DNA of 64,000 nucleotides, taken from NCBI RefSeq assembly GCF_048593235.1, contig NC_133619.1:638578558-638642557 (forward strand), given 5' to 3'. This document shows, in pieces, positions 9,047-63,159 of the stretch. Position 1 is the stretch's first letter. Every line of letters begins with the position of its first letter. Source of the stretch: Sminthopsis crassicaudata (taxonomy: Eukaryota). The translations under genes were made by a program, and so were the position numbers. Below the pieces are notes generated by a model that was not told the origin of the DNA, made no database searches, and saw only the letters and a list, made by a program, of their open reading frames with translations.

Positions 9047-12074
<3,028 letters not shown>

Positions 12075-12561: not shown

Positions 12562-12596
<35 letters not shown>

Positions 12597-13350: not shown

Positions 13351-13398
13351 GGAGAAGAAATTGGGGAGGGGGGGGACATTCGGGCTCATCCCCTGGGA

Positions 13399-13411
13399 CC
13401 CTAGATGGCGT
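13399..13411 (+). promoter_or_regulatory. CTCF-like site between B9D2 3' end and TGFB1 promoter
   Basis: CCCTAGATGGCGT, a near match to the CTCF core. Confidence 0.45.
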
Positions 13412-14145
13412 TCTCTGGGGGGCAGAAAGACCCCGACTTAGAGCCAGAGCTTCACTGGGAGTGGAGAAAGTACCCAGAGGGCGGGGAGAGAACAGTGGAG
13501 ATTACTGGGAGGGGGACAAGGGGGGGATACAGGGAGAGGGCCATGAGCCCCCCCCCCCCCCAAGGAGACAGGGCTCAGCCCCAGGGACAGCCCGAGGGCG
13601 CAGGGGAAGAAGTACAGGGAGGCCCAAGAAGGAAGATGGAGGCCAGGAAGTAAGCTTAAAGAAGGTGGCTCCCCAATGGCTCCAGCCCCCCACCTTAGGC
13701 AAGTGCCATTCCCTTTCTGAGCCTCAGTTTCCCCATTTTCCAAAGAGTAGAATAAATGAGACCACATCAAGAGTCAATAAGGCTCCTTTTAACTCAGACA
13801 TTGGGGTTCAATCACTCAAGGTGCCGTCCCTAGACACCCCCCAAGGGACCGGACTCCGGACTGAGGCCGTTTCCCTTTAACAGATGGGGGGGACGGCGAT
13901 GTCTGCTCTCTGTAGGACTCCTGTATGTACAATTTGTGCATTTCCTCCGTGAGGTCACCCCCGTTCACTCAGACACCCCTGGAAAGCCTCTCGGTTTCTT
14001 GGCATCTCCCGGGGCTTCCTTAGCCCAGCGCCTGGCTCCCAGAGAAAGCTCAGGAAGCGTGCGGATTGCCCACCGAGGGCAGGAGTCGGACGGACAGAAA
14101 AGGGGACAGGAGGAAATGACCGGGCTTGGGAGCCGGCCCAGGTCC

Positions 14146-16463
<2,318 letters not shown>

Positions 16464-18591: not shown

Positions 18592-18891
18592 TGTAAGGAC
18601 CCCGTTAGTACCTGGATACCTTAGAGTCAGCCAGAGTCAGGAGCAGCAAAAGTCTTTATTCCTGTCTTTGGGGCCCCAGTCCGCTATTAGGTTTGGAATC
18701 TCCACTCCTCCTTCCTCTCTCTCCTCAGCCAAAGAATGATCCCGCAGGGTCCGACTCCAGCCTTCCCTGTATCCACCCACAGATGGAGCCCGGGCAGGGT
18801 GGTGGGCGGGGCTTTCTCCAGGCACGTGCTAATAGAGTATTGTCCTATGGTAGTTAGTCTCAAGTACTTGGACCCAGGACATCTCCCCCTT
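18592..18891 (-). mobile_element. 3' LTR of element A
   Basis: tgtaaggacc...ccaggaca; AATAAA (minus) at 18655-18660; PPT at 18892-18909. Confidence 0.9.
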
Positions 18892-18924
18892 TCTTTTGTT
18901 TTAGAACACAGGTGGTCATACCCT

Positions 18925-20300
18925 CCCTGAGTCCTCAGGGAGGTGAGAACCCCAAAAAGGAGGTAATCACACCCTCTCTGACTCCTCAGGAAGAGGTGAG
19001 AACCCCAAAAAGGAGGTAATCACACCCTCTCTGACTCCTCAGGAAGAGGTGAGAACCTCAAAAAGGAGGTGATCACACCCTCTCTGACTCCTCAGGAAGA
19101 GAGGTGAGAATCCCAAAAAGGAGGTGATCACACCCTCTCTGACTCCTCAGGAAGAGAGGTGAGAATCCCAAAAAGGAGGTAATCACACCCTCTCTGACTC
19201 CTCAGGAAGAGAGGTGAGAATCCCAAAAAGGAGGTGATCACACACCCCCACTCCTCAAGAAGAGAGGTGAGAACCCCAAAAAGGAGGTGATCACACCCTC
19301 CCTGACTCCTCAGGAAGAGGTGAGAACCCCCAAAAGGAGGTGATCACACCCTCCCTGACTCCTCAGGAAGAGGTGAGAACCCCCAAAAGGAGGTGATCAC
19401 ACCCTCCCTGACTCCTCAGGAAGAGAGGTGAGAATCCCAAAAAGGCGGTGATCACACACCCCCACTCCTCAGGAAGAGAGGTGAGAACCCCAAAAAGGAG
19501 GTGATCACACACCCCCTGACGTCTCAGGAAGAGAGGTGAGAACCCCAAAAAGGAGGTGATCACACCCCCCCTGACTTCTCAGGAAGAGAGGTGAGAACCC
19601 CAAAAAGGAGGTGATCACACCACCCCCACTCCTCAGGAAGAGAGGTGAGAATCCCAAAAAGGAGGTGATCACACCACCCCCACTCCTCAGGAAGAGAGGT
19701 GAGAACCCCCAAAAGGAGGTGATCACACCCTCCCTGACTCCTCAGGAAGAGGTGAGAACCCCCAAAAGGAGGTGATCACACCCTCCCTGACTCCTCAGGA
19801 AGAGGTGAGAACCCCCAAAAGGAGGTGATCACACCCTCCCTGACTCCTCAGGAAGAGAGGTGAGAATCCCAAAAAGGAGGTGATCACACCCTCCCTGACT
19901 CCTCAGGAAGAGAGGTGAGAACCCCCAAAAGGAGGTGATCACACCACCCCCACTCCTCAGGAAGAGAGGTGAGAATCCCAAAAAGGAGGTGATCACACCA
20001 CCCCCACTCCTCAGGAAGAGAGGTGAGAATCCCAAAAAGGAGGTGATCATACACCCCCACTCCTCAGGAAGAGAGGTGAGAACCCCCAAAAGGAGGTGAT
20101 CACACCCTCCCTGACTCCTCAGGAAGAGGTGAGAACCCCCAAAAGGAGGTGATCACACCCTCCCTGACTCCTCAGGAAGAGGTGAGAACCCCCAAAAGGA
20201 GGTGATCACACCCTCCCTGACTCCTCAGGAAGAGAGGTGAGAATCCCAAAAAGGAGGTGATCACACCCTCCCTGACTCCTCAGGAAGAGGTGAGAAGCAC
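18925..20300. repeat. ~42-44-bp VNTR (~32 units) between env remnant and PPT of element A
   Basis: Unit AGGAGGTGATCACACCCTCCCTGACTCCTCAGGAAGA(GA)GGTGAGAACCCCCAAA with a few interleaved variants. Confidence 0.95.
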
Positions 20301-21310
20301 CAAAGGGAAGTGGGGACTGTTAGCAGGTTTCTGGGCTGGGGGGTCTTATTAGAGACAGGTATGCACAAACCCATCAGCATGGGAGTTATTACACAAGCAC
20401 ATAGAATAAATCACAGGCTTGGACTCTCCCCACAGTCAGTGCAGGCTCCATGTGGTGTAACAAACAGGAATTGTACATGCAAGTAGTGATATAACAAATC
20501 AACATGGTCTTGTAAGAGATTTCCAGAAGTCCTAGAAGGAGGGTATATAAGCATCAGTCACACATACGCCTTCTTCAGCAGTCAAGAGATCATCCAGAAG
20601 CAATCTATTGTCCATTGCTTCACGTGTCAGGGAATCCAATGATCCCTGCAGATTTTGAAGTCCTGCAACAGTCTTTTCATGTCTCAGCGAATCCAATAAT
20701 TCCTTAAGGGTTTTTAAGTCCAACAATTTTTGATGTCCATGAGCCAAACACCATAACAGCCAGGCTCTTTCAGTGGTGGGCACAGTCAGCAACGGAACCA
20801 CCCGATGTTTCTTGGATCTTCTTCAAGGGTCTGCTCTGTCTCTCTCGGAAGGACAAGGAAAATATGGCTCACTGGCACCCATCTGATTCCTTCTCCATCT
20901 GTGGAGATACAAGCAAACCCTCTCCCCCAAGCAGTTAACCTATCTGGTCCCTTCCATTCACCACTTTCTGGATCTCTCCACATGACCTGGTGATTATCTA
21001 AGGACAGTGGAGCTGCTCCCACTGGACACTGTCCTTCCAGTGGGTTATAAAACCTGTCTGCGGGAGCCAGTGCATCTTTGTCAAAGATTAAGAAGTTAAT
21101 ATTATAAAGGGATAGATTTAGAAGTTACTCGTGGTTCTCCCTTTTGTTTTTTCAGGAGCGTCTTAATCTGTTTCTCCTCTCTACTATTGCCTGTCTTTGA
21201 AGATTAAAAAGTATGCCAGTAATGTGTAAAATCTTATACTGAGTGCAAAAGTGTGCAAAATGTTTAGAAATACATGCAGGTCATGTTAGAGTTTATTTAC
21301 TCTCCCTAAC
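20300..21310 (-). pseudogene. Element A integrase core/C-terminus and truncated env TM remnant
   Basis: IN: degenerate KTDN..AY, HITG..FN.QRQAIVERRN, WKGPDRLTAWGRGFACI; env: SLTREAMDNRLLLDDLLTAEEGVCV (ISD-like); stops and frameshifts. Confidence 0.8.
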
Positions 21311-21779
21311 TAATGCCAATCTGTCCTTATTCCTAGGCCTATCAGAGAAAATCTGGTAAAGATAATATCAATAATAATATCAATCTCACCTCTGTTTTGA
21401 GGTCCTCAGAATCTTCCGGCTACTATCTCAAAGAAAGTAGTTGAAGCATAACAGAGCACCTTATGATGATGAGCAGCAACCTTAAACTTTATTCCCGTAA
21501 ATCACATCTGCTCTATGACCTCCTGCACATACCTTAGTAGCAACCTCCCAGTCCAGTCCCCAGGGGGTAAGAGGAAAGAGAAAAAGTCAGAGAAAAGGGA
21601 AAAAAAGGGAAAGGCACTTCTTGTTCCAAGCTTAAATAGGGTTAATGAGGTCACAGACACAAGCCAATCAATGATGAAGGCTGCATTCCAAACTTGACCA
21701 AGACTTCAGAGCAAGATGTAGGTTTTAGCCATGGGTGAAGTTCCCACCTATGAAGGAAGTCCCTAAGTACTCAACTCTT

Positions 21780-23026
21780 TTTTTTTTTATTATTTTTTAT
21801 TTTTTTTTATTAATTTTTATAATTATAACATTTTCTTTGACAGTACATATGCATAGGTAATTTTTTTTTTTTTTACAACATTATCCGTTGTACTCCTTTC
21901 TGTTCCGAAATTTTCCCCTCCTTCCCTCTACCCCCTCCCCTAGATGGCAGGCATTCCCATACATATTAAATATCTTATAGTATATCCTAGGTACAATATA
22001 TATATGTGCAGAACCGAATTTCGTTATTGTTGTTGCAAAGGAAGGATTGTATTCAGAAGGTAAAAATAATCTGGGAAGAAAAACAAAACAAAACAAAAAA
22101 AACACAATGCTCACAGTTTACACTCATTTCCCAGTGTTCCTTCTCTGGGTGTAGCTGATTCTGTCCATCATTGATCAATTGGAATTGGATTAGCTCTTCT
22201 CTTTGTTAAGATATCCACTTCCATCAGAATACATCCTCACACAGTATCATTGTTGAAATGTATAATGATATCCTGGTTCTGCTCATTTCACTCAGCATCA
22301 GTTGGTGTCTCTCCAAGCCTCTCTGTATTCCTCCTGTTTGTCATTTCTTACTGAACAATAATATTCCATAACATTCATATACCATAATTTACTCAACCAT
22401 TCTCCAATTGATGGGCATGCATTCATTTATAAAAAGGGCTGCCACAAACATTTTGGCACACACAGGTCCCTTTCCCTTTTTTAGTATTTCCTTGGGAGAT
22501 AAGCCCAGTAATAGCACTGCTGGATCAAAGGATCTTAATTTGCATTTCTCTTATCAATAGTGATTTGGAACACTCTTTCATATGAGTGGAAATAGTTTTA
22601 ATTTCATCATCTGAAAATTGTCTGTTCATATCCTTTGACCATTTATCAATTGGAGAATGGCTTGATTTCTTATAAATTAAAGTCAATTCTCTGTATATTT
22701 TGGAGATGAGGCCTTTATCAGAACCTTTAACTGTAAAAATGTTTTCCCAATTTGTTACTTCCCTTCTAATCTTGTTTGCATTAGTTTTGTTTGTGCAGAA
22801 ACTTTTTAGTTTGATGTAATCAAAATTTTCTATTTTGTGATCAATAATGGTCTCTAGTTCTCCCTTGGACACAAACTCCTTACTCCTCCACAAGTCTGAG
22901 AGGTAAACCATCCCCTGTTCCTCCAATTTATTTATGATTTCGTTCTTTATGCCTAAATCATGGACCCATTTTGATCTTATCTTAGTATGTGGTGTTAAAT
23001 GTGGGTCCATGCCTAGTTTCTACCAC
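21780..23026 (-). mobile_element. 5'-truncated L1 with internal deletion, inserted in the ERV
   Basis: poly-T at 21778; ORF2 C-terminal peptide MDPHLTPHTKIRSKW...KLKSFCT...LIREMQIK; 14-bp TSD AGTACTCAACTCTT at 21766-21779 and 23027-23040. Confidence 0.95.
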
Positions 23027-24048
23027 AGTACTCAACTCTTAAGCACGTACAGGGATAAAGACCATTGGTCCACATACATCTCAATTGCGCTTTCCTAACC
23101 TTTCTTTGGAACCTTGCAAATCCCCTTTCTTTCAAAGTGGGGACCACTCATCTCATGTCAAGCTACTCAGCATCAGCTATAGTTTGTTTGATCAACGAGA
23201 TCATGCTCAAGGAGGCAGGAAGCAACACCACTAACCTACTCAACAGAGACATGTCCAAGGAGAGAAGATATCAAGGAGGCAGGATGTCAATGAGAGAAGA
23301 TGTCACCATGATAGGATGTTACAATTATGCACAGTACTGACATCTAGTACAATTGTCACAATTCCAGTTCACAATTTTACTTTGTCACAATTCTGGTGCA
23401 CTTACATATATGACACTTGTCACAATTCTAGATCAATTCTAGTTTCACAGATAAAGGTGCACATAAGCAAAATCATGTCCAGAAGCATTATCTCAATAAG
23501 CAGCTGGGTGTGTTGGTTTTTCACCCCCTAATTTAAAAGCATAGTCCTTCCATAGAAAGCATAGGGCAAAGCCTCTCCCTAGGCCACCATATGGCAAGTA
23601 GCCACGGGAGAAGCAAGCAGGCCCATTGTCCAATTGCAGTCTTTATATTGCACAGAAGTATGACAATGAGACTTAGGCTCGACAGTGGCCAAGTGGTCAA
23701 CCCATTCATTAAAGTCATACTCATGGAGATTTAGTCTTTATATTGCATATCACTCAAGACAGTCCATTTCAGCTGCTACAATGGAGCTGTGTCTGCTGTC
23801 TCTGGTGTCACGGTCAGGAGGGACATGGCTGCCATCAGCGTCTGGAGGGCTGCGGACATCTGGCTGGTCCCTCTGGGCTGTTGTCTGGTCCTTCTCATGG
23901 ATCCCCAGGTCACAAATGTCTGTGGTGGGGATCAATTCCTCTGCTGTTGAATCTGCACCTAGAAGGAAAGGAATGTACCCGGGGGCCCCAAACTTTGACC
24001 CAACCTGGGTCTTTCCAAATGCCATCCAGGCCTCTCCACATCACTGTG

Positions 24049-24622
24049 TGTAACGTGCTCTCCTGGCAGTTACAATTACTAGTCTGTCCTAGACCCACCA
24101 GAGTACCTTTGACCACTGTCCTTTGCAGTGTGAGCTCTACCCGGCTCGCCTCCTCTGAGGCCTTCTAAGGTCTCTGGCCACAATCTCTTGAATCTATTGC
24201 TTAGTAACCGGTAGCGCACTCAAGAACAACCACATGTAATCTTAAAAGCCTTTATTATACCTACTCACATAATGCCCTAACTGATGCCCTGACTTGTTGG
24301 TTCCCTGGTGAACACCTGGTCAGAAGACCCATGTGTTCACTACCAAAACCCTTACCTCTTTTGGCTACCCATCTTGGCTTGGCCACCCAGCTGGGGAGCC
24401 AGGGTGAACAGCAGGAGGTTAAAGAGGGCGGTTGCTGCCTGCAGTGGGCTTATATAGGGCCTGTGAGGTCACACACACAGCCAATCAGCGAGAGAGTCAC
24501 CCATTACAAAACTATCTCAATATGGCCAGGATCCCGCCCAAGGGCAGTCCTAATATCCACAGAAATTACTTCTGGGCCTCAATCCCGATGCACTGTGTCC
24601 GCCCATTTAAAGGGCCCTTACA
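24049..24622 (-). mobile_element. Solo LTR of B family (LTR-B3) inserted into B'
   Basis: tgtaacgtgc...cccttaca; 6-bp TSD ACTGTG (24043-24048, 24623-24628); empty site present in the paralog at ~31271. Confidence 0.92.
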
Positions 24623-25962
24623 ACTGTGGAAGGAAAGTTCTTTTCAAAAAGACAAACAAAAGTCAGACAAAATCAAAGTTTGAGTTACTGACTTGTACTT
24701 CAGGAGTGTGAATCAATACATCTGATGTTACTTCTCCTCCTGGGTCAAAAGTCAGACAAAAGTCAGTCAGTCTGTGACTTAGCTGCACTTTCTGTGTATG
24801 CCCAAAGTGCATTGCTAAAGTAAAATCCAAAGAATTAAAAAATGTAAAAATAAAATCATTTAAAAATGTAAAACCAAAATAACTTTAAAATATAAAATCA
24901 AAATAATTTAGGAATATAAAATCAAAATTTTAAAATTGCAAACAATCACATATATGAATTGCCACATCTTGTGCATATCCCAAAATTCCCTTCTCTTGTT
25001 TAGAAGAGAACATCTTGGGGATATAAATAGTCTGTCCAGTAATGACTTGACTGGCAGGAAGAAATGCCAATGGAATGGGCAAAGTCCAATTCAATGCAAA
25101 AACATCTAAAGGCAAAATATTTATAAGCCAATCCATAACCTGTCTTAAATGCATGTGAAATTCCTACAATGGAAAAATGGTTGATCACATGTCTAGCTGC
25201 TTCTCCAGATTGGAATGAAGCCATAATGTCCATTGGTCTTAAAACATTAAATTTCAAACCATAAGGCTTTTGTCCTATAGGGAGCTTAGGAGAGTGAAAA
25301 GAAAGATAAGCTGTGTAGCCTTTTGCCAGGCTCCTAGCTTCCTCTTTAGTTATCACAATTTGCAAATATAAGACTCTAGCAGGCTGATTATAAAAGATAT
25401 GATTTGAAAGTCCACTCTGAAAATGGACATGTAGGATATCATCTTTACCTGAGTGCTCTCTCACTTGCTCTCGAAGTTCTTTAGAGAGCTGATAATATAT
25501 ATTTAAAACTACAAATCTTATTTGAGCTGTGGCAATTCTTTGTACCACATCTATTGAATAAGCCAATTAAAATTTATTCTTACATACCCACGTGCAAAGC
25601 TTACAGCTGTAGCCAATACATTTTTTCCACTCTGGGATGGTTTCACAACACACATCAATTTGGGTATTGATATGAGAGATATTTCTTTTACCAGGTCTTG
25701 TCCCAGATCATTTTTAAAATTTTTTTAATTAAATTTTAAATTAAAAAAGCTATTTTTAAAATTTTTACCACAAGCACTGGGTAAAATTTAAATTTTTTAT
25801 CTGATTGTGCTGGAAAGTTCACCCACTTCATACTGTCTCCTTGGTGAAGGACTGCTATGAGTGCCCTTTTTGTAACCAAATTTGATATTTCCAATGCTTT
25901 TTTAGTTATTTTTTCAGCCATATTAGATAAAGCCAATTCAATCTCTCTTAGAGCCTCTAGTC

Positions 25963-26159
25963 CAGTGGTCCTCAAACTTTTTAAATAGGGGGCCCGTTCA
26001 CTGTCCCTCAGACTGCGGGAGGGCCGGACTATAGTAAAAACAAAAGCTCACACTCTGTCTCCGCCCCTCAGCCCATTTGCCATAACCCAGCAGGCCTGGC
26101 CATATAAACTTCCTCAATGGGCAGCATCTGGCCTGAGGGCTGTAGTTTGAGAACCCCTG
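25963..26159. mobile_element. hAT (Charlie/OC1-like) MITE, copy 1
   Basis: 16-bp TIRs CAGTGGTCCTCAAACT / AGTTTGAGAACCCCTG; 8-bp flanks CTCTAGTC/CTCTAGAG (NTCTAGAN target typical of Charlie elements). Confidence 0.85.
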
Positions 26160-27434
26160 CTCTAGAGCATCCTTTTAAAGGTGGTATTGTGAGTCTAAGG
26201 CACTGCTTCCTCTTAAAGGCAATACCACCTTAACTCTTGGAGATACTTCTCTCACAGGAGCAAGGTCAGCAGCCACACATCTTTGACACAAAGTAGGGCT
26301 GTTCTTTATGCCATATGGCAAGGCCGTCCATTCAAATCCTCTATAAAACTCAGCTGAATTAATGCTGGGCACTGAAAAGATAAATTCCTTCATATCCTCC
26401 TTATCTAGAGAAATATAATTTTTTATCCTAAAAGACCATTCCTCAGGCAATTGAGGAGATGGAAGCCCAAGCTGAAGAGCTTCCACTGTCTTCATGTGTT
26501 CATTTATTTTTCTTGGATCAATAAATATTCTCCATTCCTCAAACTTAACAAATTGAGGGGAAGCTTAGAGAAGCTTGTAAATGTCCTTGATTAAGTCTTT
26601 TCTGTCCTGTGCTTAATGAAATTTGAATTTTTTCACTTTTTAAGAAGTCTCTTCCCTATTGGTCAATAGAAGCCCTTTCCACTGGAAAATAAATAAGTTT
26701 TACTCTTTTAAATTTAAATTTCCATTCCAAGAGGTAGCACTAATTTTAACTACTATAGATCCTTTTATACCTGACACATAGGTATTTGCTGATTTTTAAC
26801 CAATTACCAGTCCAGCTGGCACATCTAATAGCTACATTACTTACATCTGTGTCTACCAACCTTTTCAATGGTCTGCCATTCATACAGTTAATGAAAAAAG
26901 GACACTGGGCTATGAAAGCTTCAGTCCATGATATCCCTTGAATTCTTTGGCCTAAAATCAAAGTTTGAGTTACTGACTTGTACTTCAGGAGTGTGAATCA
27001 ATACATCTGATGTGACTTCTCCTCCTGGGTCAAAGATCACACACTATCTATTCTAGTGATTAAAACAGCAATTTTCCAAACTTCTAAAAATAAATACTCG
27101 TAGGGGGTTGGGCAATTAACCCAACCTGTGGAAGTGAAAAATCCACAAGGTAAGAAAAAGGGAATTCCAACTCTCCAAGAACTATCCTAGAAGTTTTATT
27201 GGTATAAAACTCCACTCTCTCTAACTGAGCTGTATTTTTAAATTTTTTCTGAAGATTATAGCAATTACTGGACTCAGGACACCACAAATCTTTTTTGGCT
27301 GGGGCCCTAAAGCCTACTTTCTTAGCTGTTACTATTTGAATTTGAATCAGCCATTCAGGAGCCCAATCAATTTTTCCTGAGTCAATCCCTCTTAAGAATG
27401 GCTTGTTTTCTATATAAATAGTACACATGGGTTT

Positions 27435-27652
27435 GTTGTACATAGGATTAAATACTAAAATACATGGAACCTGTGAACTTAAAGGGCGATCATCTAATCC
27501 CTAAAGCACTCCCATTACATTCTTTTGGTGAGGTGAATTTTACTCAGAGGATTGGGCAAGAAAAACCCATGTAATGGGAGTGCTTTAGGGATTAGATGAT
27601 CGCCCTTTAAGTTCACAGGTTCCATGTATTTTAATATCTTCCTATGTACAAC
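27435..27652. repeat. Inverted repeat: 65-bp perfect arms (27456-27520 / 27569-27633), ~85 bp including imperfect ends, 48-nt spacer
   Basis: Reverse complement checked base by base. Confidence 0.95.
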
Positions 27653-27919
27653 CATGGGTACATAATCTGAAAGTTTGATTCTAGCTCCTACCTTAGGTTG
27701 TACCTCAACACATGCAGTAGTCCATGGACTAATGTTAAAACCCTCAACTGCATTCACCAAATACTGTAAATATATCTCATCAAAGCTTGATCTTAATCTA
27801 TTTAATATATGTTTGGGGTCCTCAAGGGACCCCCATGCAAGTTTCCCTGAATCGAAGTCTTACTTTTCTTCCTGATCCTACAAAACTCTACCAGGTGGCC
27901 TATCTTGCCCCAAGCAAGG

Positions 27920-29126
27920 TCAAAGAATGCTTAATTGTAATGCTATCTGCTGTAAGATGTCTCTTCCCCACAGATTGATGGGTATTTTTTCAACTAGAAA
28001 AGGAATAAAAGCTCCTGTTTCACCTTCAAAAGCCCATCTCAAAGGCCTAGCACTAACTTCAGCTGCTATTGGTCCTTCTACCCCAGACACGTAGGTGTCT
28101 GCCTTAATCTTTGGCCAGTGACTGGGCCAGTTGGCATCTCTAATTTCTGTTCGATCTGCACTTGTGTCTCCCAGGCCTGCTAATGGTATGCCATTTATAT
28201 AGATGGTGGGCATAGGTCGGCCAGCTGTCATGGCTGCTGTCCAGTATATTCCTGGGTTCTGCTGCTTGGAGTCAGAATGTGGGTGACAACAGATTGTTTA
28301 TTGGGAGTCTGTATCAGTAAACCCTATGCTACTACTTCTCCTGGTTGATAAGTCACACATTGTCTGCCTGTATTAGTGACTGGGATATTAGCTACACATT
28401 CCCACATCAGGGTATGGATGGACACTGTTTTGTAGGCACTCTCAGGAGGTGAAATGGTCAAGCCTACTGTGCCTGGAGGCAAGGGATCCATAGGCTGGAG
28501 AGGAACAGATTTCACCTCTCCAGGGGGTATCTCAGTTGTCCCAGATGCATACAACTCTATCCTCCCCAATTGTAGTCCCTTTCTACCATCATGTTGCTTC
28601 CTGGCTGACTGATTGTGTAATCCCTTTCTCCCATCAGATGGCTTCCTGGCTGATTGGTCATGTCTGGGTATTGGACTTGTAGGCACTCTCTGGGTGTGGC
28701 ATGGGCTGCCATCATGCCCCAAGTGTTTTTGGCCTGGGGCCCTGGAGCTGGGCCCCTCATCCCGTTTCCCTGGATCAGTCTGCACTCTGAGGCCCAGTGG
28801 AAGTCTCTGTTGCATTTTGGACATGGGGTTTGGGGTCTTGTTCTCCCACCCTGTTTTCTCACTGTCTCTATGCCAACATTGAGCTTTCAGATGCCCTGCT
28901 TTACCACGTTGAAAACATTGATGAGTCTCTCTGGAAGTCCCTTGCCAAAAGGAACCCTGTCTTCCCATGTTGGGAATCTTGGGAAGTCTGCCTCATAGGC
29001 TGGCTATAAAAAGCATTTGTGCCCACTGTGGCACAATCTTATGATCTCCTCTAAAGGAGCATCCTTGCATAGTCCTACTATAATTCTTCTGCAAACCTCA
29101 TTAGCATTTTCTTTAGCAAGTTGCCT
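27920..29126 (-). pseudogene. Element A gag CA-C/NC, dUTPase and protease (disrupted)
   Basis: RQLAKENANEVC; knuckles CFQRGKAGHLKAQC and CPKCNRDFHWASEC; GGGAAAC frameshift site at 28764-28770; dUTPase-like IELYASGTTEIPPGE; protease LAGLGDTSAD...INLWGRDIL. Confidence 0.85.
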
Positions 29127-29807
29127 TGATGAGGTAGAAAAGGGGGAATCCCGTTTTAGTCAGTGCAAAGATCGTGACTGCGCAGTGTCCCCTGTATATG
29201 AATCTACAGGCCCGAAAACCTAGATTGATAAAAAGAAAAAAGGTTTATTGTAGGAATTTGGTAGTAAAGTTGAAGGTAGAAAGGCGCCAGGGCCAGAGGT
29301 GGCCTTTGGGTGGGCAGGAACCCTTACATGGCAGGAAGGATACCATGTTTGGGGGGAAGGGCTCCTGCAAAGAGAGCTCCAGCTTGACTCTTTTATACCT
29401 AAAAGGGGGTTGTGGGCAGTGCCTCAAGTTCCGGGTGGGCTTATCAGATAAGGAGGAAACTGTTTGTGGGGAGCTGGGGAAACCTGAGCAAATAGTGGGG
29501 ACTGAGAAAACCCAAGCCAGCTCAGATCCGGTGGGGGCTGGGCCCAGATGTTCAAAAGGGTGCTTTTTGACCAGGATTTGTGAATCAAAGGTCAGCCAGG
29601 GGGGTTGGGAAATCAGAAAGGAAATCTTTTTTTTTTTTTTTTTTTGAGGCTGGGGTTAAGTGACCCAAGGTCACACAGCTAGGAAGTGTTAAGTGTCTGA
29701 GATCACATTTGAACTCGGGTCCTCCTGAATTCAGGGCTGGTGCTCTATCCACTGCACCACCTAGCTGCCCCAGAAAGGAAATCTTAAAGGGACCTCAACC
29801 CTCATCA
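29127..29807 (-). mobile_element. Solo LTR of a third family (LTR-C) in gag CA
   Basis: Terminal inverted repeats TGATGAG...CTCATCA; 4-bp TSD GCCT (29123-29126, 29808-29811); TATAAAAG and AATAAA on minus; removal restores gag ...MIR|QLAKE... Confidence 0.9.
29629..29771 (-). mobile_element. Young WSINE1-type SINE inside LTR-C
   Basis: Full length with poly-T; 14-bp TSD AGAAAGGAAATCTT (29615-29628, 29772-29785). Confidence 0.93.
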
Positions 29808-31754
29808 GCCTTATCATAATTTCTGTAACTGCATTTTCACCATTAGTCTGTATGACAGCTGTCTGCAAACGTCCCACAAAATCAGCAAAGGGTTCACTTA
29901 GCATGCTCTCCTAGCAGCTGCTATTACCAGTCTCTCCTCATCCCTAGGCCTTCAGAGTACCCTGGGTACTGATCATTGCAGTGTCAACTAACTATCAACT
30001 CGCCTCCTCTGAGGCCTTCAAGGGTCTCTGGCCATGATTTCTTGAATCCTAGTTTAATAACCAATAGCTCGCTCAAGAACAGCCACGTGTAAACTTAAAG
30101 CCTTTATTACACCTACTCACATAATGCCCTGACTTGTTAACTCCCTAGTGAACACCTGGCCTGAAGACCCACGTGTTCACTATCAAGTTCCTTACCTCTC
30201 TGGCTATCCATCCACTTGGCTTGGCTACCCCAGGATAAAGAGAGCGACCTGCTGCTTGCAGTGGGCTTAAAAGGGCTGTGAAGTCACACACAGCTAACCA
30301 GCGAGAGAGCCGTCACCCATTACGAAGCTATCTCAATATGGCTGGGATCCGGCCCGTGGGGCAGTCCCTAGCCACAGAAATTACTTCCGGGCCATTCAGA
30401 CCTCCTGTTGCGCTGTGCTGGCCCATTTAAAGAACCCTTACATTTCCCTTCTCTTGTTCAGCAGGTCCCGCACATCTCATCAAGCTAAACTTTAGCACCA
30501 GCTCTAGTTCACTTGATGCATGAAGATGGCAGAGTGTTATGCCCAAGGAGGCACAAAGCAGCAGATCAAGAAGCAGAAGTATGACAGTGAGAACAAGGCT
30601 CAACAGTGGCCAAGTGTTCAACCCATTCATTAAAGTCATACTCAAGGAGGTGATGTGCCAAAGAGGTTGGATGCCAAGGAGGTAAAATATCACAATTCTA
30701 GTTCACAATTAAATATCAGTGAGGTAAGGTGTCACAATTCTAGTTACATTTGTTACAACTCTACTGCACTGATATACATCTATTGAAAGGAATCACAGAT
30801 AAAGGTGCAAAACACAAATAAAGATGCACACAAGCAAAGTCAAGTCCAGTAACATTGTCTCAATAACATTGCCAGGTGGGCCTGTTGGTTTTTCACCCAC
30901 TAATTTAGAGGCATAGTCCTTCAATAGAAAACACAGGGCAAAGCCTCTCCCCAGGCCACCATAGGGTGAGTATAGGAGAAGCACACAGGCCCATTGTCCA
31001 TTTAACAGTCTGTTTATATTGCACATCACCCAGGACAGTCCATTTCAGCTGCTACACTGGAGCTGTGTCTGCTGCCTCTGGTGTCACGGTCTGGAGGGAC
31101 ATGGCTGCCATCAGCGTCTGGCTGGTCCCTCTGGGCTGTCGTCTGGTCCTCTTCTTGGATCCCCAGGTCACAGATGTCTCTGGTGGGATCCCCTCCTCTG
31201 CTGCTGCACCTCGAATGAAAGAATATACCCGGGGCCCCAAACCCTGACCCAACTTGGGCCTTTCCACATCACTGTGGAAAGAAAGTTCTTGTCAAAAAGA
31301 CAAACAAAAGTCAGTCTGTCACTTAGCGGCACTTTCTGTGTATGCCAGAAGTGCATTGCTAAGATAAAATTCAAAGAATTTTAAAATATAAAATCAAAAT
31401 AATTTAGGAATTTAAATCAAATTTTTAAAATCACAAGCAATCACATATATGAATTGCCACATCTTGTGCATATCCCAAAATTCCCTTCTCTTGTTTAGAA
31501 GAGAACATCTTGGGGATATAAATAGTCTGTCCAGTAATGACTTGACTGGCAGGATTATAAGAAATGCCAATGGAATGGGCAAAGTCCAATTCAATGCAAA
31601 AACATCTAAAGGCAAAATATTTATAAGCCAATCCATAACCTGTCTTAAATGCATGTGAGATTCCTACAGTGGAAAGATAGTTGATCACATGCCTAGCTGC
31701 TTCTCAGATTGGCGTGAAGCCGTCATGTCCATTGGTCTTAAAACATTAAATTTC

Positions 31755-31903
31755 GGGGGCAGCCAGGTGGCGCAGTGGATAGAGCACCAGCCTTGAATTC
31801 AGGAGGACCCAAGTTCAAATGTGGTCTCAGACACTTAACACTTCCTAGCTGTGTGACCCTGGGCAAGTCACTTAACCCCAGCCTCAGGGAAAAAAAAAAC
31901 AAA
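31755..31903 (+). mobile_element. Young WSINE1-type SINE inside element B
   Basis: GGGGGCAGCCAGGTGGCGCAGTGGATAGAGC...A-tail; 15-bp TSD AAAACATTAAATTTC (31740-31754, 31904-31918); empty site in B' at ~25241. Confidence 0.95.
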
Positions 31904-32626
31904 AAAACATTAAATTTCAAAACATAAGGCTTTTGTCCTATAGGGAGCTTAGGAGAATGAAAAGAAAGATAAGCTGTGTAGCCTTTTGCCAGCCTCCTAG
32001 CTTCCTCTTTAGTTATCACAATTTGCAAATATAAGACTCTAGCAGGCTGATTATAAAAGATATGATTTGAAAGTCCACTCTGAAAATGGACATGTAGGAT
32101 ATCATATTTACCTGAGTGCTCTCTCACTTGCTCTCGAAGTTCTTTAGAGAGCTGATAATATATATTTAAAACTACAAATCTTATTTGAGCTGTGGCAATT
32201 CTTTGTACCACATCTACTGAATAAGCCAATTAAAATTTATTCTTACATACCCACGTGCAAAGCTTACAGCTGTAGCCAATACATTTTTTCCACTCTGGGA
32301 TGGTTTCACAACACACCTCAATTTGGGTATTGATATGAGAGATATTTCTTTTACCAGGTCTTGTCCCAGATCATTTTTAAAATTTTTTAAATTAAATTTT
32401 AAATTAAAAAAGCTATTTTTTAAAATTTTTACCACAAGCACTGGGTAAAATTTAAATTTTTTATCTGATTGTGCTGGAAAGTTCACCCACTTCATACTGT
32501 CTCCTTGGTGAAGGACTGCTATGAGTGCCCTTTTTGTAACCAAATTTGATATTTCCAATGCTTTCTTAGTTATTTTTTCAGCCATATTAGATAAAGCCAA
32601 TTCAATCTCTCTTAGAGCCTCTAGTC

Positions 32627-32822
32627 CAGTGGTCCTCAAACTTTTAAAATAGGGGGCCCGTTCACTGTCCCTCAGACTGCGGGAGGGCCGGACTATAGTA
32701 AAAACAAAAGCTCACACTCTGTCTCTGCCCTCAGCCCATTTGCCATAACCCAGCAGGCCTGGCCATATAAACTTCCTCAATGGGCAGCATCTGGCCTGAG
32801 GGCTGTAGTTTGAGAACCCCTG
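32627..32822. mobile_element. hAT (Charlie/OC1-like) MITE, copy 2
   Basis: Same TIRs, same mutated flank (CTCTAGTC) and same insertion point in RT as copy 1. Confidence 0.85.
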
Positions 32823-35358
32823 CTCTAGAGCATCCTTTTAAAGGTGGTATTGTGAGTCTAAGGCACTGCTTCCTCTTAAAGGTAGAACCACCTTAACTCT
32901 TAGAGATACTTCTCTCACAGGAACAAGGTCAGCAGCCACACACCTTTGACACAAAGTAGGGCTGTTCTTTATGCCATATGGCAAGGCTGTCCATTCAAAT
33001 CCTCTATAAAACTCAGCTGGATTAATGCTGGGCACTGAAAAGATAAATTCCTTCATATCCTCCTTATCTAGAGAAATATAATTTTTAATCCTAAAAGACC
33101 ATTCCTCAGGCAACTGAGGAGATGGAAGCCCAAGCTGAAGAGCTTCCACTATCTTCATGTGTCCGTTTACCTTTCTCGGATCAATAAACATTCTCCATTC
33201 CCCCAAATTCCTTTTTATAACAACTTTAGAGGAATTCCAAGGACTTAGAGAAGCTTGTAAATGTCCTTGGTTAAGTCTCTTCTCTCCTATGCCTAATGAG
33301 ATCTAAATTTTTTCATTTTTTAAGAAGTCTCTTCTCCACTAGTCAATAGGGGCCCTTTCAACTGTAATAATAAATAAATTTATCTGTCTTCTATTTAAAT
33401 TCCCATTTCCAAGTGGTAGCACTATTTTTAGCTATTATAAATCCTTTTATGCCAGACATATAGGTATTTTCTGTGGTCTTTAACCAATTACTAGACCAGC
33501 CGGCACATCTAATAGCTGCACTATTTACATCTGTGTCTACCAGCCTTTTCAATGGTCTGCCATTCATACAGATAATGAAAAAAGCATACTGGGCTATGAA
33601 AGGTTCAGTCCATAACTGATGTTACTTCTCTTCCTGGGTCACAGATCACACACTGTCTATCTATACTAGTGATTGAGACAGAAGTTTCCCAAACCATTCC
33701 AAAAATAAAGTTTTATAAGTGCTTGGAGGGGATTGGGCAACCAAGCCCACCTGTGGAAGTGGAAAATCCATGAGGTGAGCAAAGGGGAGTTCCAGCTCAC
33801 TAAAAACTATCCTAGAAGTTCTACAGATATAAAAACTCCACTCTCTCTAACTACAAGGTCTTATCTTTGTAAAGTGGCTTAGAAACTGACTGAGCTGTGT
33901 TTTTAACATTTTTCTGAACATTATAGTCATTAAAGTCCTCAGTATACCACCATTCTTTATTGCCTCAGGCCATAAAGCTTACTTCCGCTCTTTTGAAATG
34001 AAGATTTAGGAGATTTGAATGGATTAATGGACAGTGCTGATGATATTATCACCCTTCCTATTCCTCCTCCTCCTCCTTCTCCCCAGACCCAGGAAGGTGG
34101 AGCTGAGGGAAGAGGGTCAGGAATTGGAAAATTCCTCAAAGGCCAATTTAAAATCCAAACCAAGCTTCGCACATAAAAAGAACTAAACCTCTTCTTAATG
34201 GGGGGGGGGGGGGGGGTTAATCAATACATTCCTTAAAACAATAATACACCAGGAAAACCAACAAAATGCTAAGAAGAATTTCTCCAACTGACTTCCATGT
34301 GATTTGTTTATTTCCCTCCTTAGCTTCAGCTTTGAAGTCTTCCGGTTCTAGCTGTAGTAACCTAGTTTTTTCTTCTTTCTCTATCTCAACCTGTAATTTA
34401 GCCCGCAATTCTAGGAACTCTTTTTTAATTGTTTGTCATTCTACTTCTAACTCAACTTCTAGTTGTTGTATTTCATACTCTATATTATCATATTCACATA
34501 TATTAGCTCTAGGTTGCTCCCTCTCCAGGGTAGCCTTCTTGGAGCTTGATTACGAGCTTCTTGCCATTCTTCAGATGTGATCTTTGTTAAAAGACCTTCC
34601 ATCTGGCTCTTTAACCTATTTATATGAGTATTATGTGCAGCTGTATCCTTGAGCCTGATCCCAGGGTTACCCAGGTCCATATTGCCTCTCTGCCTTCCCT
34701 CCTAGGTGGGGTTTCTACCGGTTCTCTCAGAATTTTAATTCTGAATATTAAATATTAATTTTCAAAAATTAATCTTTGAAGCCTGATAATCTATGATGTA
34801 CCCACATCTGGTGTCATCTGTAACATGCTCTCCTAGCAGCTGCTATTACCAATCTCTCCTGATTCCTAGGCCCTCAGAGTACCTTGGGCACTGACCCTTG
34901 CAGGTCAACTAATTCTACTAACTCGCCTCCTCTGAGGCCTTCAAAGGTCTCTGGCCATGATTTCTTGAATCATAGTTTAATAAGCGGTAGTGCACTCAAG
35001 AACAGCCATGTGCAAACTTAAAAGCCTTTATTACACCTACTCACATAATGCCCTGACCTGTTAACTCCCTAGTGAACACCTGGCCTGAAGACCTACATGT
35101 TCACTATCAAGCTCTTTACCTCTTTTGGCTATCCATCCACTTGGCTTGGCTACCCCAGGTTAAAGAGAGCGACTTGCTGCCTGCAGTGGGCTTAAAAGGA
35201 GCTGTGAGGTCACACAAATAGCCAATCAATGAGAGAGCCGTCACCCATTACAAAGCTATCTCAATATGGCCAGGATCCCGCTGAAGGGGCAGTCCTTTAC
35301 TTCCAGGCCACTTAGACCTCCTGTTGCACAGTGGCTGCCCATTTAAAGAACATTTACA

Positions 35359-36489
35359 GGTTCATTTGGTCTTTGTGCAGTTTTTATGAAGGCCTCACCC
35401 TTGTCATTTTTATTGGGGAGAGAAGCCCATGCTTTGATAGCAGCAGCAGCAATTTGCTCATATGCTGCTATGGAGTAATTACTCTGTACTGAAATTTCTG
35501 CATAGGAACCTACACGTGTTAGTTGGTCACAGGTGAGGTATTCACTCCACTTTGACTGTTTTGTTGGGCTTGTATCCTACAGAGCTCACTGTATTCAGAA
35601 AGCCACAATAAGTTTTGTCCAGGTTCTAAGCATACCCTTGCTATGGATTTCCAGTCACTAGGGGTTCAGACTTTATAAGCTAAATTCTGCAATGACATCT
35701 TGACATAAGCTGATGTAGCCCCATAAAGAGAGCAAGCCTTTTTCAGGTCTTTGAGGATGTCTATATCAAAAGGAGCGTATCTTCTACTTTCTTGACTTGA
35801 AGAGTTAAACTGTTGAATCACCGGAAATATTTACAGCTGCATATCACCTATATCCTTCCCTTCCTCTATGGCTTCAAGTACTGCCTTTTGTAATCTGGTC
35901 ATAGGAGGGGGTGATTGTTGGGGGGTAGGTGCTGGTGGTGTCACTGACCCTCTCACTACTCCTCCTTCCTCCATCCTGGAAGGTGGAGTTGTATGGGCCT
36001 GTCAATAATCTGCTCTCTAGGCACTGTTGAAGCTGCCTCTTGAGAGCCAGAATCACCACAGCCTTGAAACTCATTTAAGTCCCCATGCCCTCAGGCAATA
36101 TGGTCATTAGACTGTTCTTTGTCTTCCTCTTTTTCCTCACACTTCCTCATCTGGCCATTCTTAAAACTTTTTCATTTTCTATAACTTGCAAGATTCTTTA
36201 AGGCCAATTGTATTATGTTGTATATATAGAATGCTTCTGTGGAAATTGAAAGAGGACCTCTATCGTTATAGTATTCACAGAGTTGTTCTCCCACAAGTTT
36301 CCAACTATCTGGACTTATTTCTTCTTCCTCTAAGAACCAAGGGGACGTGCGTCCTAATGTACCCAAGAATCTAGCAATCTGTTCCCAGGTTATAATTAAA
36401 CCTTGCCCCTCAATTAACTTAAGCCTGCTTTCTATAGTGCCCCTTCGGGGTGGGGATGGGGGAGAATCTTTTCCTAACGTCTGCCCCAT
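35359..36489 (-). pseudogene. Element A gag MA-p12-CA(N) (disrupted)
   Basis: MGQTLGKDSPP... (myristoylation Gly2), WFLEEEEISPDSWKLVGEQL, then CA-like YAPFDIDILKDLKKACSLYGATS...TPSDWKSIARVCL; stops and frameshifts. Confidence 0.85.
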
Positions 36490-36631
36490 TTCAGCTACAA
36501 AAGGTTATTAGTTTAGCCCTTAACAAAGTAAGTTCCCTGTTTGTCTATTAAAATACTCACCTAATTTCCTGGTCACCGAGTGACTTCTTCAGTGAAAGTA
36601 GGGTACTTGGCCCACACCTTGGGTGCCAAAA

Positions 36632-36927
36632 TGTAATGACCATGTTAGTACCCTGGATACCTTAGAATCAGTCGGAGTCAGGATCAGCAAAAGTCTTTAT
36701 TCTTGGTCTTTTGGGGTCTCAGGGGATTAGATCTAGGAATCTACACACCTCCTTCCTCTCTCTCCACAGCCAAAGAATGATCCCACCTGTCCTACTCCAT
36801 CCTTGGAGGTCTCCCTTCCTTCACTGTTTGCACCCACAGATGGGATGGTGGGCCGGGTCATTCTCCAAGCATATGCTTTAGCGTATTGTCCAATTAGCCT
36901 CAAGTGCTTGGACTCAGGGCCTTTACA
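36632..36927 (-). mobile_element. 5' LTR of element A
   Basis: tgtaatgacc...ctttaca; adjacent PBS; homologous to 18592-18891. Confidence 0.9.
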
Positions 36928-37744: not shown

Positions 37745-38752
37745 TTTATTTTTTTAAAGCTTTTTTATTTTTAAAACATCTGCACTGACCTTTGCATAAG
37801 CCTTGTGTTCCAAATTTTCTTTTCCTTTCCCCCACTCCCTCCCTTAGATGGCAAACAATCCAATATATGTTATTCATGTTAAAGTATATGTGAAATCCAA
37901 TATGTGTAAACATACTTATATAATTCTATTGTACAAGAAAAATCAGATCAAAAAGGAAAGAAAATGAGTAAGAAAACAAAATGCAAGGGAACAACAACAA
38001 AAAGAGTGAAAAAACTATGTTGTGATCTACACTAAGTTCCCATAGTCCCCTCTTTGGGTGCAGATGGCTCTCTGTATTACAAGTCCATTGGAACTGGCCT
38101 GAATCATCTTATTGTTAGAAAGAGCCACGTCCATCAGAATTGCTCATCGTATAATCTTGTTGTTGAAGTGTATAATGATCCCCTGGTTCTGCTCATTTCA
38201 CTCAGCATCAGTTCATGCCAGTCTCTCCAAGCCTTTCTGAAATCTTCCTGCTGGTCATTTCTTACAGAACAATAATATTCCACAACATTCATATACCACA
38301 ATTTACCCAGCCCTTCCCCAACTGATGGGCATCCACTCAGTCTCCAGTTTCTTGTCACCACAAAAGGGGCTGCCACACTTTTGCATATGTTGATCCCTTT
38401 CCCTCCTTTAAGATCTCTTTGGGATATAGGCCCAATAGAAACACTGCTGGGTCAAAGGGTATGCACAGTTTGATAGCCCTTTAGGCATAGTTCCAAATTG
38501 CTCTCCAGAATGATTGTATCTGTTCACAGCTCCACCAACAATGTATCAGTGTCCCAGTTTTCCCACATCTCCTCCAACATTTGTCATTATGTTTTCCCAT
38601 CTTAGCCAATCTGAAAGCTGTGTAGTGGTACCTCAGAATTGTCTTAATTTGCATCTCTGATCAGTAATGATTTAGAGCACCTTTTCATATGATTAGAAAT
38701 GGTTTTAATTTCTTCATCAGAAAATTGTTTGTTTATATCCTTTGACCATTTT
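37745..38752 (-). mobile_element. Older 5'-truncated L1 3' fragment within a (GGAT)n-like tract
   Basis: T-rich tail, L1 3'UTR and ORF2 C-terminus (AAPFVVTRNWRLSGCPSVGEGLGKLWYMNVVEYYCSVRNDQQ). Confidence 0.85.
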
Positions 38753-38809
38753 GGATAAGTTTTTAAATGGATAGTTAAGAGTTGGATGGATGAATAGATG
38801 TTTGGATGG

Positions 38810-39049
38810 NNNNNNNNNNNNNNNNNNNNNNNNNNNNNNNNNNNNNNNNNNNNNNNNNNNNNNNNNNNNNNNNNNNNNNNNNNNNNNNNNNNNNNNNNNN
38901 NNNNNNNNNNNNNNNNNNNNNNNNNNNNNNNNNNNNNNNNNNNNNNNNNNNNNNNNNNNNNNNNNNNNNNNNNNNNNNNNNNNNNNNNNNNNNNNNNNNN
39001 NNNNNNNNNNNNNNNNNNNNNNNNNNNNNNNNNNNNNNNNNNNNNNNNN
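38810..39049. other. Assembly gap (240 N)
   Basis: N run. Confidence 1.
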
Positions 39050-39159
39050 TAGTTTGCAAATAGCAGGCTGGGAGAAGAGGCCCAGGGACTGTCATATAAC
39101 AGAGGGATTGCTATTCTCTTTGGTATGGAGGGAAAAAAGGGGGGAAATGAGCATTTATA

Positions 39160-46565: not shown

Positions 46566-47888
<1,323 letters not shown>

Positions 47889-48974: not shown

Positions 48975-56612
<7,638 letters not shown>

Positions 56613-57214: not shown

Positions 57215-63159
<5,945 letters not shown>

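What the first reader, a model, noticed from the sequence alone, without database searches (positions are those of the whole stretch)
18592..36927. Fully decodable 'Russian-doll' ERV: at least nine insertions stacked inside one provirus
Seen: each layer has its own TSD. Element B (GGTTCA, 6 bp) and solo LTR-C (GCCT, 4 bp) sit only ~85 bp apart in the capsid MHR region of A, and removing them restores gag in frame. Also present are solo LTR-B3 (ACTGTG), an L1 (14-bp TSD), two SINEs (14- and 15-bp TSDs) and two MITE copies. Knowledge: 6-bp TSDs typify beta-like integrases and 4-bp TSDs typify gamma/ERV1. Inference: the provirus was a repeated integration sink in a gene-dense GC-rich region, giving the order A > B, C > SINE/L1/LTR-B3.
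Basis: partly seen in the sequence, partly recalled or inferred. Interest (0 to 1): 0.75.

Follow-up and report, generated by a model that had tools for sequence, protein, structure and literature searches.

The report
Nested retrovirus fossils that swapped DNA
A dead marsupial retrovirus fossil holds eight separately inserted mobile elements, and two related retroviral relics inside it share a nearly identical 1.5-kb stretch, including a small DNA transposon, most likely because one was copied onto the other by gene conversion; the stack is real, but the processes behind it are known ones.

Summary
The nest is real but was misread. Outer element A (minus strand, beta-like ERV, 18592-36927) is interrupted by B (6-bp TSD) and solo LTR-C (4-bp TSD) in capsid; three paralogs show both sites empty. 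But 21284-27928 is not A's pol: it is a missed LTR element, D, related to B, whose 5' end was deleted together with about 2 kb of A's pol. The L1 and LTR-B3 sit in D, so their order relative to B and C is not shown. The two MITEs (OC1-type hAT) are one insertion: same site, 98% identical against at most 91% for other copies, inside a 1.5-kb tract where D and B differ by 0-2% while flanks differ by 9-15%. Trees and diagnostic sites point to patchy, two-way ectopic gene conversion, with the MITE probably copied from B to D. Count: eight independent insertions plus one ~90-bp templated insert. Nesting is 4-8 times denser than in 20 paralogs, but the locus was picked after the fact, so a targeted 'sink' is unproven. 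A's 3' LTR, beside the B9D2 promoter, evolved twice as fast with a strong AT-to-GC bias, inflating LTR dating. Junctions were not confirmed by reads.

The parts
18592..18881 (-). 3' LTR of element A; accelerated, AT-to-GC-biased private changes
   Evidence: 76% to 5' LTR by blastn, p=0.17; 28 private changes in 250 sites, 19 W>S vs 2 S>W
18910..20304 (.). 53-55-bp minisatellite, about 26 copies, local expansion of a unit in A's 3' region
   Evidence: paralogs L005, L010, L043, L047, L050 match it over only ~110-170 bp
20330..21283 (-). A: integrase C-terminus and env (TM-like) remnant
   Evidence: PF00552 E 3.3e-14 on 20789-21124; frame 20532-20822 looks like an immunosuppressive-domain remnant by eye, no Pfam hit; collinear with L067, L068, L069
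21284..23118 (-). 3' LTR of missed element D, split by the L1
   Evidence: 39 of 39 other hits begin at query 172-197 (35 of them at 181-187); matches the terminal direct repeat of L058 and LTR-like ends of L054, L059; TG...CA ends with purine tract beyond
21779..23026 (-). 5'-truncated L1 with poly(A) tail, inside LTR-D; lacks ~190 bp at 22531/22533 relative to paralogs
   Evidence: TSD 21766-21778 / 23027-23039
23119..27928 (-). internal region of element D (degraded protease/RT/RNaseH-like, B-related family, subfamily I)
   Evidence: homologous to B 30574-33984; many dispersed copies; RVT_1 E 2.1e-6
24049..24622 (-). solo LTR-B3 inserted in D
   Evidence: TSD ACTGTG; empty site in B and in L059
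24657..24762 (.). ~90-bp templated insertion copying 26954-27043, bracketed by a ~16-bp duplication
   Evidence: 95.6% to the donor; no other locus spans it, and 29 of the 39 others show the two flanks close together
24943..26487 (.). conversion tract in D (with an unconverted 67-bp patch at 25159-25225)
   Evidence: 0 of 216, 9 of 66 and 20 of 1246 mismatches against B
25963..26159 (.). OC1-type hAT MITE, copy in D
   Evidence: ends match published OC1_Das by eye; 98% to the B copy, at most 91% to 38 others
27435..27652 (.). inverted repeat, a family feature of D-type elements
   Evidence: the same inversion in L053-L061
27920..27935 (.). private deletion junction joining D's interior to A's protease/RT start
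   Evidence: 0 of 39 other hits span it; all break at query 322-348; paralog L067 has ~2.1 kb of pol between the A-matching flanks
27929..29126 (-). A: capsid C-terminal part, nucleocapsid, protease
   Evidence: zf-CCHC_5 E 7.6e-5, RVP E 9.8e-19; 83-84% collinear with L067, L069
29127..29807 (-). solo LTR-C (ERV1-like by TSD length), with SINE inside
   Evidence: TSD GCCT; family TSDs; orientation read by eye from TATA- and AATAAA-like motifs
29628..29770 (-). SINE inside C (WSINE1-like, name recalled)
   Evidence: TSD 29614-29627 / 29771-29784
29812..29896 (-). A: capsid major-homology-region piece between C and B
29897..35358 (-). element B: two-LTR, gag-less deleted ERV (LTRs 29897-30442 and 34819-35358, subfamily II interior)
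   Evidence: TSD GGTTCA, LTR p=0.10; the left LTR is the right LTR's best other hit in the genome, 86% vs 84%
31438..33150 (.). conversion tract in B
31755..31903 (+). SINE inside B, absent from D
   Evidence: TSD 31740-31754 / 31904-31918; gap in D
32627..32822 (.). OC1-type MITE, copy in B (likely the original insertion)
35359..36490 (-). A: matrix and capsid N-terminal part, broken by a stop and frame breaks
   Evidence: PF02337 E 5.6e-11, PF00607 E 6.2e-8 in different frames
36632..36927 (-). 5' LTR of A, preceded (minus strand) by a tRNA-Lys-like primer site read by eye

Best explanation
This is a dead beta-like endogenous retrovirus (A) that carries eight independent later insertions, and two of its passengers, the related elements D and B, share a 1.5-kb near-identical tract that most likely arose by ectopic gene conversion, which would also have copied one DNA-transposon MITE from one element to the other. 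Shown by TSDs and empty-site paralogs: A > {B, C, D}; D > {L1, LTR-B3, 90-bp templated insert}; B > SINE; C > SINE. Shown: a private deletion removed D's 5' end and about 2 kb of A's pol. Inferred: D and B, 6.66 kb apart, same orientation and 85-90% alike, served each other as repair templates long after insertion; repair was patchy and ran both ways; the MITE most likely entered B at a hAT-favoured CTCTAGAG site and was copied into D. Inferred: the density of layers reflects a neutral, growing target between constrained host genes during overlapping bursts of several element families, not targeting.
For: Tract vs flanks: 15 of 1079 vs 111 of 914 mismatches, Fisher p 2e-24. In the tract D and B are sisters in 4 of 4 segment trees (support 100/97-100/100); in the 5' flank they fall in different supported subfamily clades (100/98 and 96/91). 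Shared private states: 18 in 940 sites left of the MITE and 6 in 26160-26489, against 0 in 252 and 0 in 220 sites in two flanks (4 in 26490-26929). MITE site among 36 other ERV loci scored: 34 empty, 1 with one flank only, 1 with an independent opposite-orientation MITE. MITE pair 98% vs at most 91% for 38 other copies; same damaged TSD in both. Direction: in 26609-27196 D carries type I at 19 of 19 diagnostic sites and B type II at 16 of 19; both carry type II at 25926 and at 7 of 7 scored sites in 26193-26287 (bracketing the MITE), and both carry type I at 26341-26412 and at 10 of 13 sites in 25002-25877. B's LTRs differ by 10%, far more than the tract. D as its own element. Ectopic conversion with patchwork among ERV LTRs is published (PMC4921805, abstract); NTCTAGAN is the published hAT target (PMC2836564, passage).
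Against: No orthologous locus from another species was seen, so the unconverted state and the donor are inferred from paralogs only. The MITE's left bracket rests on one diagnostic site (25926). B's native subfamily 3' of the MITE could not be fixed (one informative site in that flank), so D-to-B transfer there is weaker than it looks. The T3 tree placement outside subfamily I has weak support (73/83). L138 shows the same site was hit independently once among 36 loci, so parallel insertion does happen. No read or contig was seen to span a junction. Insertion density exceeds the paralog baseline (Poisson p 6e-6 to 7e-4), which a purely neutral model must put down to post-hoc choice and an undercounted baseline.
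Confidence: 0.8

Rival explanations
1. One reading: one provirus, nine or more independent insertions with their own TSDs, drawn to a repeated integration sink.
For: Six TSD pairs exact; insertion density about 0.47 per kb against 0.06-0.11 per kb in 20 paralogous loci; LTR-C-type sequence also lies in or at 3 of 14 B/D-family loci (L061, L062, L066).
Against: MITEs are one event; D was missed and has no TSD pair; 0 of 29 best LTR-C loci and 1 of 23 best LTR-B loci lie inside these ERV families; the baseline is biased low (intact top hits, only repeat types present in the window recognised).
Confidence: 0.07
2. Two independent OC1 MITE insertions at the same palindromic hAT hotspot in D and in B.
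For: L138 carries an independent MITE at exactly this site, in the opposite orientation, 86-87% to the window copies.
Against: 98% identity against at most 91% elsewhere, same orientation, same two-base damage to the TSD, and 1.5 kb of flank equally homogenised.
Confidence: 0.02
3. B is a young retrotransposed recombinant that picked up D's MITE-bearing tract at the RNA stage and landed beside it.
For: LTR and interior combinations are mixed in this family (L053, L064, L065), so template switching occurred.
Against: B's LTRs are 10% apart while the tract is 0-2% apart; D itself carries a B-type patch; no third copy with this tract among 36 loci.
Confidence: 0.04
4. The homogeneous tract is an assembly artefact (one copy's reads used for both, or two haplotypes merged).
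For: Not excluded by reads; laid contigs did not bridge junctions.
Against: The two tracts differ at 20 scattered sites in 1246 bp plus a SINE and a 13%-diverged patch; subfamily mosaicism is structured; flanks are 9-15% apart and easily resolved; two contigs of another sample match D's 3' part at 1 of 189 and 0 of 159 differences (records 17 and 19).
Confidence: 0.07

Closest known systems
MEBrv 3 env-less betaretrovirus-like ERVs of Dasyuridae (Harding et al. 2024, PMC11334065; parts 1-3 of 7 read)
   Same: Beta-like gag and pro, integrase C-terminus followed by an env remnant that looks like a gamma-type immunosuppressive domain, very many genomic copies.
   Different: A's LTR is about 296 nt (paper: 469 nt); intact paralog L067 spans 6.2 kb (paper: 7.3 kb); no sequence or RT-tree comparison was made, and A's RT is deleted.
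OC1_Das non-autonomous hAT elements (Gilbert et al. 2013, PMC3621081; part 1 of 3 and supplement 1 read)
   Same: Terminal sequences, about 195 bp length and 8-bp TCTAGA-centred target.
   Different: By eye the interior follows the autonomous element's 5' region, not the published 192-bp OC1_Das-NA interior; here one copy was duplicated without a new target site.
Ectopic gene conversion among ERV sequences (Trombetta et al. 2016, PMC4921805; abstract and opening read)
   Same: Patchwork of sequence from paralogous elements; homogenisation that distorts dating.
   Different: Here it involves pol interiors of two elements nested in a third, 6.66 kb apart, runs both ways, and carries a 197-bp insertion with it.
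Nested transposon insertions in mammals (Levy et al. 2010, PMC2836564; abstract and passages read)
   Same: Young elements inside older ones; hAT 8-bp NTCTAGAN and ERV1 4-bp TSDs; recurrent hotspots within a target family (L138).
   Different: Depth of eight insertions in one marsupial provirus, three levels deep.

Membership tests
Class II (beta-like) ERV, element A | Paired LTRs with TG...CA ends around gag-pro-pol | tested here: met
   17% apart, with the right LTR among the left LTR's best relatives (76%, best 77%)
Class II (beta-like) ERV, element A | Beta-type Gag, protease and integrase domains | tested here: met
   PF02337, PF00607, PF14787, PF00077, PF00552; PF19317
Class II (beta-like) ERV, element A | 6-bp TSD | tested here: inconclusive
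   5 of 6 match
Class II (beta-like) ERV, element A | RT groups with betaretroviruses | not tested
   A's RT is deleted; paralog RTs were not placed on a tree
MEBrv 3 | No env ORF, gamma-type ISD remnant beyond pol | tested here: inconclusive
   frame 20532-20822 resembles it by eye; no Pfam hit
MEBrv 3 | About 7.3 kb with 469-nt LTRs | tested here: not met
   LTR ~296 nt, L067 6.2 kb; membership not claimed
MEBrv 3 | RT in the MEBrv 3 clade | not tested
   supplement of PMC11334065 listed but not opened
OC1 (hAT) MITE | OC1 terminal sequences | tested here: met
   by-eye comparison with supplement 1 of PMC3621081
OC1 (hAT) MITE | 8-bp NTCTAGAN target duplication | tested here: met
   a CTCTAGAG-like octamer at 10 of 10 empty sites printed, 7 exact; 6 of 8 in the window; L138 near-perfect
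ERV1-type solo LTR (C) | 4-bp TSD across the family | tested here: met
   16 exact and 4 one-mismatch of 29 loci
ERV1-type solo LTR (C) | Gamma-like internal genes in full-length copies | not tested
   LTR pairs ~6 kb apart exist but were not fetched
Ectopic gene conversion tract | High-identity tract bounded by diverged paralogous flanks, discordant trees, shared derived states | tested here: met
Ectopic gene conversion tract | Unconverted state in an orthologous locus or another haplotype | not testable with these tools
   no related genome held; contigs uninformative
WSINE1 (both SINEs) | Sequence match to the WSINE1 family | not tested
   name recalled; only poly(A) tail and 14-15-bp TSDs shown

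The most novel reading that the evidence does not exclude
The stack sits on a long-lived double-strand-break and recombination hotspot beside the B9D2 promoter, and that one cause produced the excess of insertions, the private deletion, the templated insert, the 26-copy minisatellite, the GC-biased doubling of the 3' LTR's rate, and two-way gene conversion that duplicated a DNA transposon without transposase. The locus would then be a rate-free record of a marsupial recombination hotspot, and a case where LTR dating is off almost two-fold.
Probability: 0.25. Interest if true: 0.55.

Novelty: new member of a known kind. Interest (0 to 1): 0.33.

Why it matters
Nested elements and ectopic conversion are known, so the finding is a worked example rather than a new system. 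Its value: (1) a caution that counting copies overcounts insertions and that a one-LTR element can pass for the host provirus's pol; (2) a clean case of a non-autonomous DNA transposon duplicated by repair between paralogous ERVs; (3) two distortions of molecular dating at one locus: LTR-LTR distance gives about 30 My for A but 17 My for B at the published opossum-wallaby rate, although private change is 4-6% in every layer except A's 3' LTR; (4) a rate-free order of events: SINE retroposition continued after B and C integrated, which can be set against the published estimates of ~30 Ma for the end of WSINE1 activity (PMC4408412, passages) and ~17 Ma for the OC1 burst (PMC3621081) once orthologs are compared.

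Tried and rejected
MITE carried by a retrotransposing ERV family: rejected, 34 of 36 other loci are empty at the site. LTR-C targeted to beta-like ERVs: not supported, 0 of 29 top loci nested in them, though 3 of 14 B/D-family loci have LTR-C-type sequence in or at them. A's two LTRs from different subfamilies: not supported, no closer relative of the left LTR among 39 other hits (best 77% over most of its length); three-way comparisons with 8 single paralogs put most changes on the left LTR. D plus A as a recurrent chimeric family: rejected, 0 of 39 hits span the junction. First TSD counts for LTR-C snapped to the wrong end and were redone. One Fisher table had a mis-summed cell and was redone. 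Earlier notes of this scan: none found. Literature searches (listings only unless cited) returned no paper on this locus or on a transposon copied between nested ERVs; the library lacks most subscription journals, so this is weak evidence of absence.
Full report
Setting. The window is G000:C3:638578558-638642557, in a 3.24-Gb, 8-contig genome. An OC1-type MITE and abundant beta-like ERVs point to a dasyurid marsupial (inference from PMC3621081 and PMC11334065). GC is 55-75% over most of the flanks and 35-50% over most of the nest. Pfam hits on 111 long frames chosen from the 168 place CCDC97-, TGFB1- and B9D2-like genes on the left and TMEM91- and BCKDHA-like genes on the right (names recalled); B9D2's first coding exon starts at 16367 on the minus strand.

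Element A. LTRs lie at 18592-18881 and 36632-36927, 17% apart (K2P 0.196), flanked by TCTTGG / ACTTGG. On the minus strand follow matrix, capsid, zinc knuckle, protease and, far downstream, the integrase C-terminus. Paralogs L067 and L069 are uninterrupted at the B and C sites, have LTR pairs 92.5% and 87% alike, and are collinear with 36911-35359, 29899-29809 and 29127-27926; L068 is collinear across the same sites. This shows directly that B and C are insertions in capsid, 79 bp apart; the piece between them matches PF19317 positions 16-43. gag is also broken elsewhere. Excision and translation were not done (referred).

TSDs. B GGTTCA, C GCCT, LTR-B3 ACTGTG, both SINEs 14-15 bp, L1 13 bp exact. 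Across families, LTR-C gave 16 exact 4-bp TSDs and 4 with one mismatch among 29 loci; LTR-B gave 9 exact 6-bp and 2 with one mismatch among 23. B's left LTR is the right LTR's closest relative in the genome and the two are 10% apart.

The missed layer. Self-alignment shows 23446-27319 to be homologous to B's interior 30574-33984. Dispersed copies match 23040-27928 as one unit and end in their own LTR, which corresponds to 21284-23118 once the L1 is set aside. This is element D. Its match to relatives stops at 27928, where A's protease region begins; none of 39 other hits spans that point, and L067 has about 2.1 kb of pol between the A-matching flanks. So D inserted in A's integrase region and a later private deletion took D's 5' end, its second TSD and most of A's pol (inference). 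The L1 and LTR-B3 lie in D. A ~90-bp copy of 26954-27043 sits at 24657-24762 between duplicated 16-mers and is spanned by no other locus scored.

One MITE, not two. Both copies sit at the same site with the same damaged TSD. Of 36 other ERV loci scored, 34 are empty, one has a single flank and one (L138) has an independent MITE in the opposite orientation. The pair is 98% alike, the other 38 copies scored at most 91%. The ends match published OC1_Das by eye, and NTCTAGAN is the published hAT target.

The tract. D and B differ at 0 of 216 sites in 24943-25158, 9 of 66 in a patch beside B's SINE, and 20 of 1246 in 25241-26487, against 9-15% in adjacent flanks and up to about 30% further out. Other family copies are 5-18% away in the tract segments (26 loci examined). 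Trees of five segments (17-19 of 20 loci with over 85% cover, plus D and B) put D and B in different subfamilies in the 5' flank and as sisters in all four tract segments. Diagnostic sites (10 type-I and 6 type-II loci) give a patchwork: B-type in both copies at 25926-26287, around the MITE; D-type in both at 26341-26412 and at 10 of 13 sites in 25002-25877. The simplest reading is ectopic gene conversion in both directions, the MITE going from B to D (direction moderately supported). At 3.21e-9 per site per year (rate used in PMC3621081) the tract is about 1-5 My old, B about 17 My. Rivals: independent insertion fails on identity and flanks; a recombinant B fails on its old LTRs and on D's B-type patch; an artefact is unlikely but untested, since laid contigs bridged no junction.

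Revised history. A > {B, C, D}; D > {L1, LTR-B3, templated insert, deletion}; B > {SINE, MITE likely}; C > SINE; last, D-B conversion; minisatellite expansion (about 26 copies) undated. Eight independent insertions lie inside A. Private change is 3.8-6.4% in 14 of 15 segments, so the layers are of similar age.

Sink or not. In 20 fetched paralogous loci 5 nested insertions were recognised in 90.5 kb of ERV span; about 10 if edge-truncating ones are added by eye. The nest has 8 in about 17 kb (Poisson p 6e-6 to 7e-4). The baseline is biased low and the locus was chosen after the fact; dasyurid genomes hold 7,000-19,000 gene-bearing ERV fragments (PMC11334065, Table 2). Neither LTR-C (0 of 29) nor LTR-B (1 of 23) prefers these ERVs. 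A targeted sink is unproven.

A's 3' LTR. It carries 28 private changes in 250 sites, 19 W>S against 2 S>W; the other segments 463 in 9126, 211 against 181 (p 1e-4 and 1e-3), confirmed in three-way comparisons with 8 single paralogs. This fits GC-biased gene conversion beside the B9D2 CpG-rich region (inference) and inflates A's LTR date to about 30 My. With the deletion, templated insert, minisatellite and conversion tract, it suggests a break-prone locus (the novel case, probability 0.25).

Comparison and verdict. A works like the env-less MEBrv 3 retrotransposing ERVs but fails their published size features and was not placed on a tree, so membership is not claimed. Nested insertion, hAT hotspots and ectopic conversion among ERVs are all in print. 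Searches listed no paper on this locus or on a MITE copied between nested ERVs. Papers seen: PMC3621081 part 1 of 3 and supplement 1; PMC4408412 passages; PMC11334065 parts 1-3 of 7, supplement not opened (it may hold MEBrv sequences bearing on family names); PMC2836564 abstract and passages; PMC4921805 abstract and opening. Verdict: real, partly misread, a new member of a known kind; interest 0.33.

Noticed in passing
L138 (G000:C1:338792975-338793180): Independent OC1-type MITE at exactly the same CTCTAGAG site of another B/D-family ERV, opposite orientation, 86-87% to the window copies: a recurrent hAT hotspot in this family's pol.
   Followed up: yes
window 18592-18881: A's 3' LTR has 11.2% private changes against 5.1% in 14 other segments (p 1e-4) with 19 W>S vs 2 S>W (p 1e-3); it lies about 0.6 kb from the CpG-rich 5' region of B9D2 and next to the minisatellite. 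A pro-gag (27930-29120) also leans W>S (31 vs 11) without a raised rate.
   Followed up: partly
window 4917-16367 and 47343-62472: Host genes by Pfam: CCDC97-like, TGF-beta (TGFB1-like), B9-C2 (B9D2-like, ATG at 16367, minus strand), CD225 (TMEM91-like), E1 dehydrogenase (BCKDHA-like); gene names and the match to a human gene cluster are recalled. The nest lies upstream of B9D2 in the same orientation.
   Followed up: partly
window 29891-29905: B's left end reads CTTAGC where the family has TGTAAC; it fits either three terminal substitutions or a 9-bp duplication (8 of 9) with loss of the terminal three bases, i.e. a non-canonical integration end.
   Followed up: partly
window 27435-27652: A 218-bp inverted repeat is inherited in D-family copies (L053-L061), upstream of the protease remnant; its origin was not worked out.
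   Followed up: no
L053, L064, L065, L126: Mixed LTR and interior types in this ERV group: D-type interiors with B-type LTRs, an LTR-D fragment inside L053's leader, an A-type LTR piece at one end of L064, and a solo LTR-B inside an A-family pol (L126).
   Followed up: no
L061, L062, L066: LTR-C-type sequence in or at 3 of 14 B/D-family loci, more than a sparse family would suggest, although the 29 best LTR-C loci are not nested in such ERVs.
   Followed up: partly
window 25963-26159: The MITE's interior differs by eye from the published OC1_Das-NA; loose ends at 26045 in runs of organisms B, C and F suggest that another interior type is common there, so this may be a lineage-specific subfamily.
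   Followed up: no
window 15314-16283, 43310-44418, 49600-53380, 4360-4930: Four further tandem arrays (74-bp in a B9D2 intron, 20/41-bp, CA-rich ~100-bp, GC-rich 12-bp) in 64 kb: a minisatellite-rich region about 18 Mb from the contig end.
   Followed up: no
window 37760-40611: Another L1 3' fragment just right of the nest, running into an N stretch (38810-39049), and a 243-bp 99% direct repeat at 38387 / 40369.
   Followed up: no
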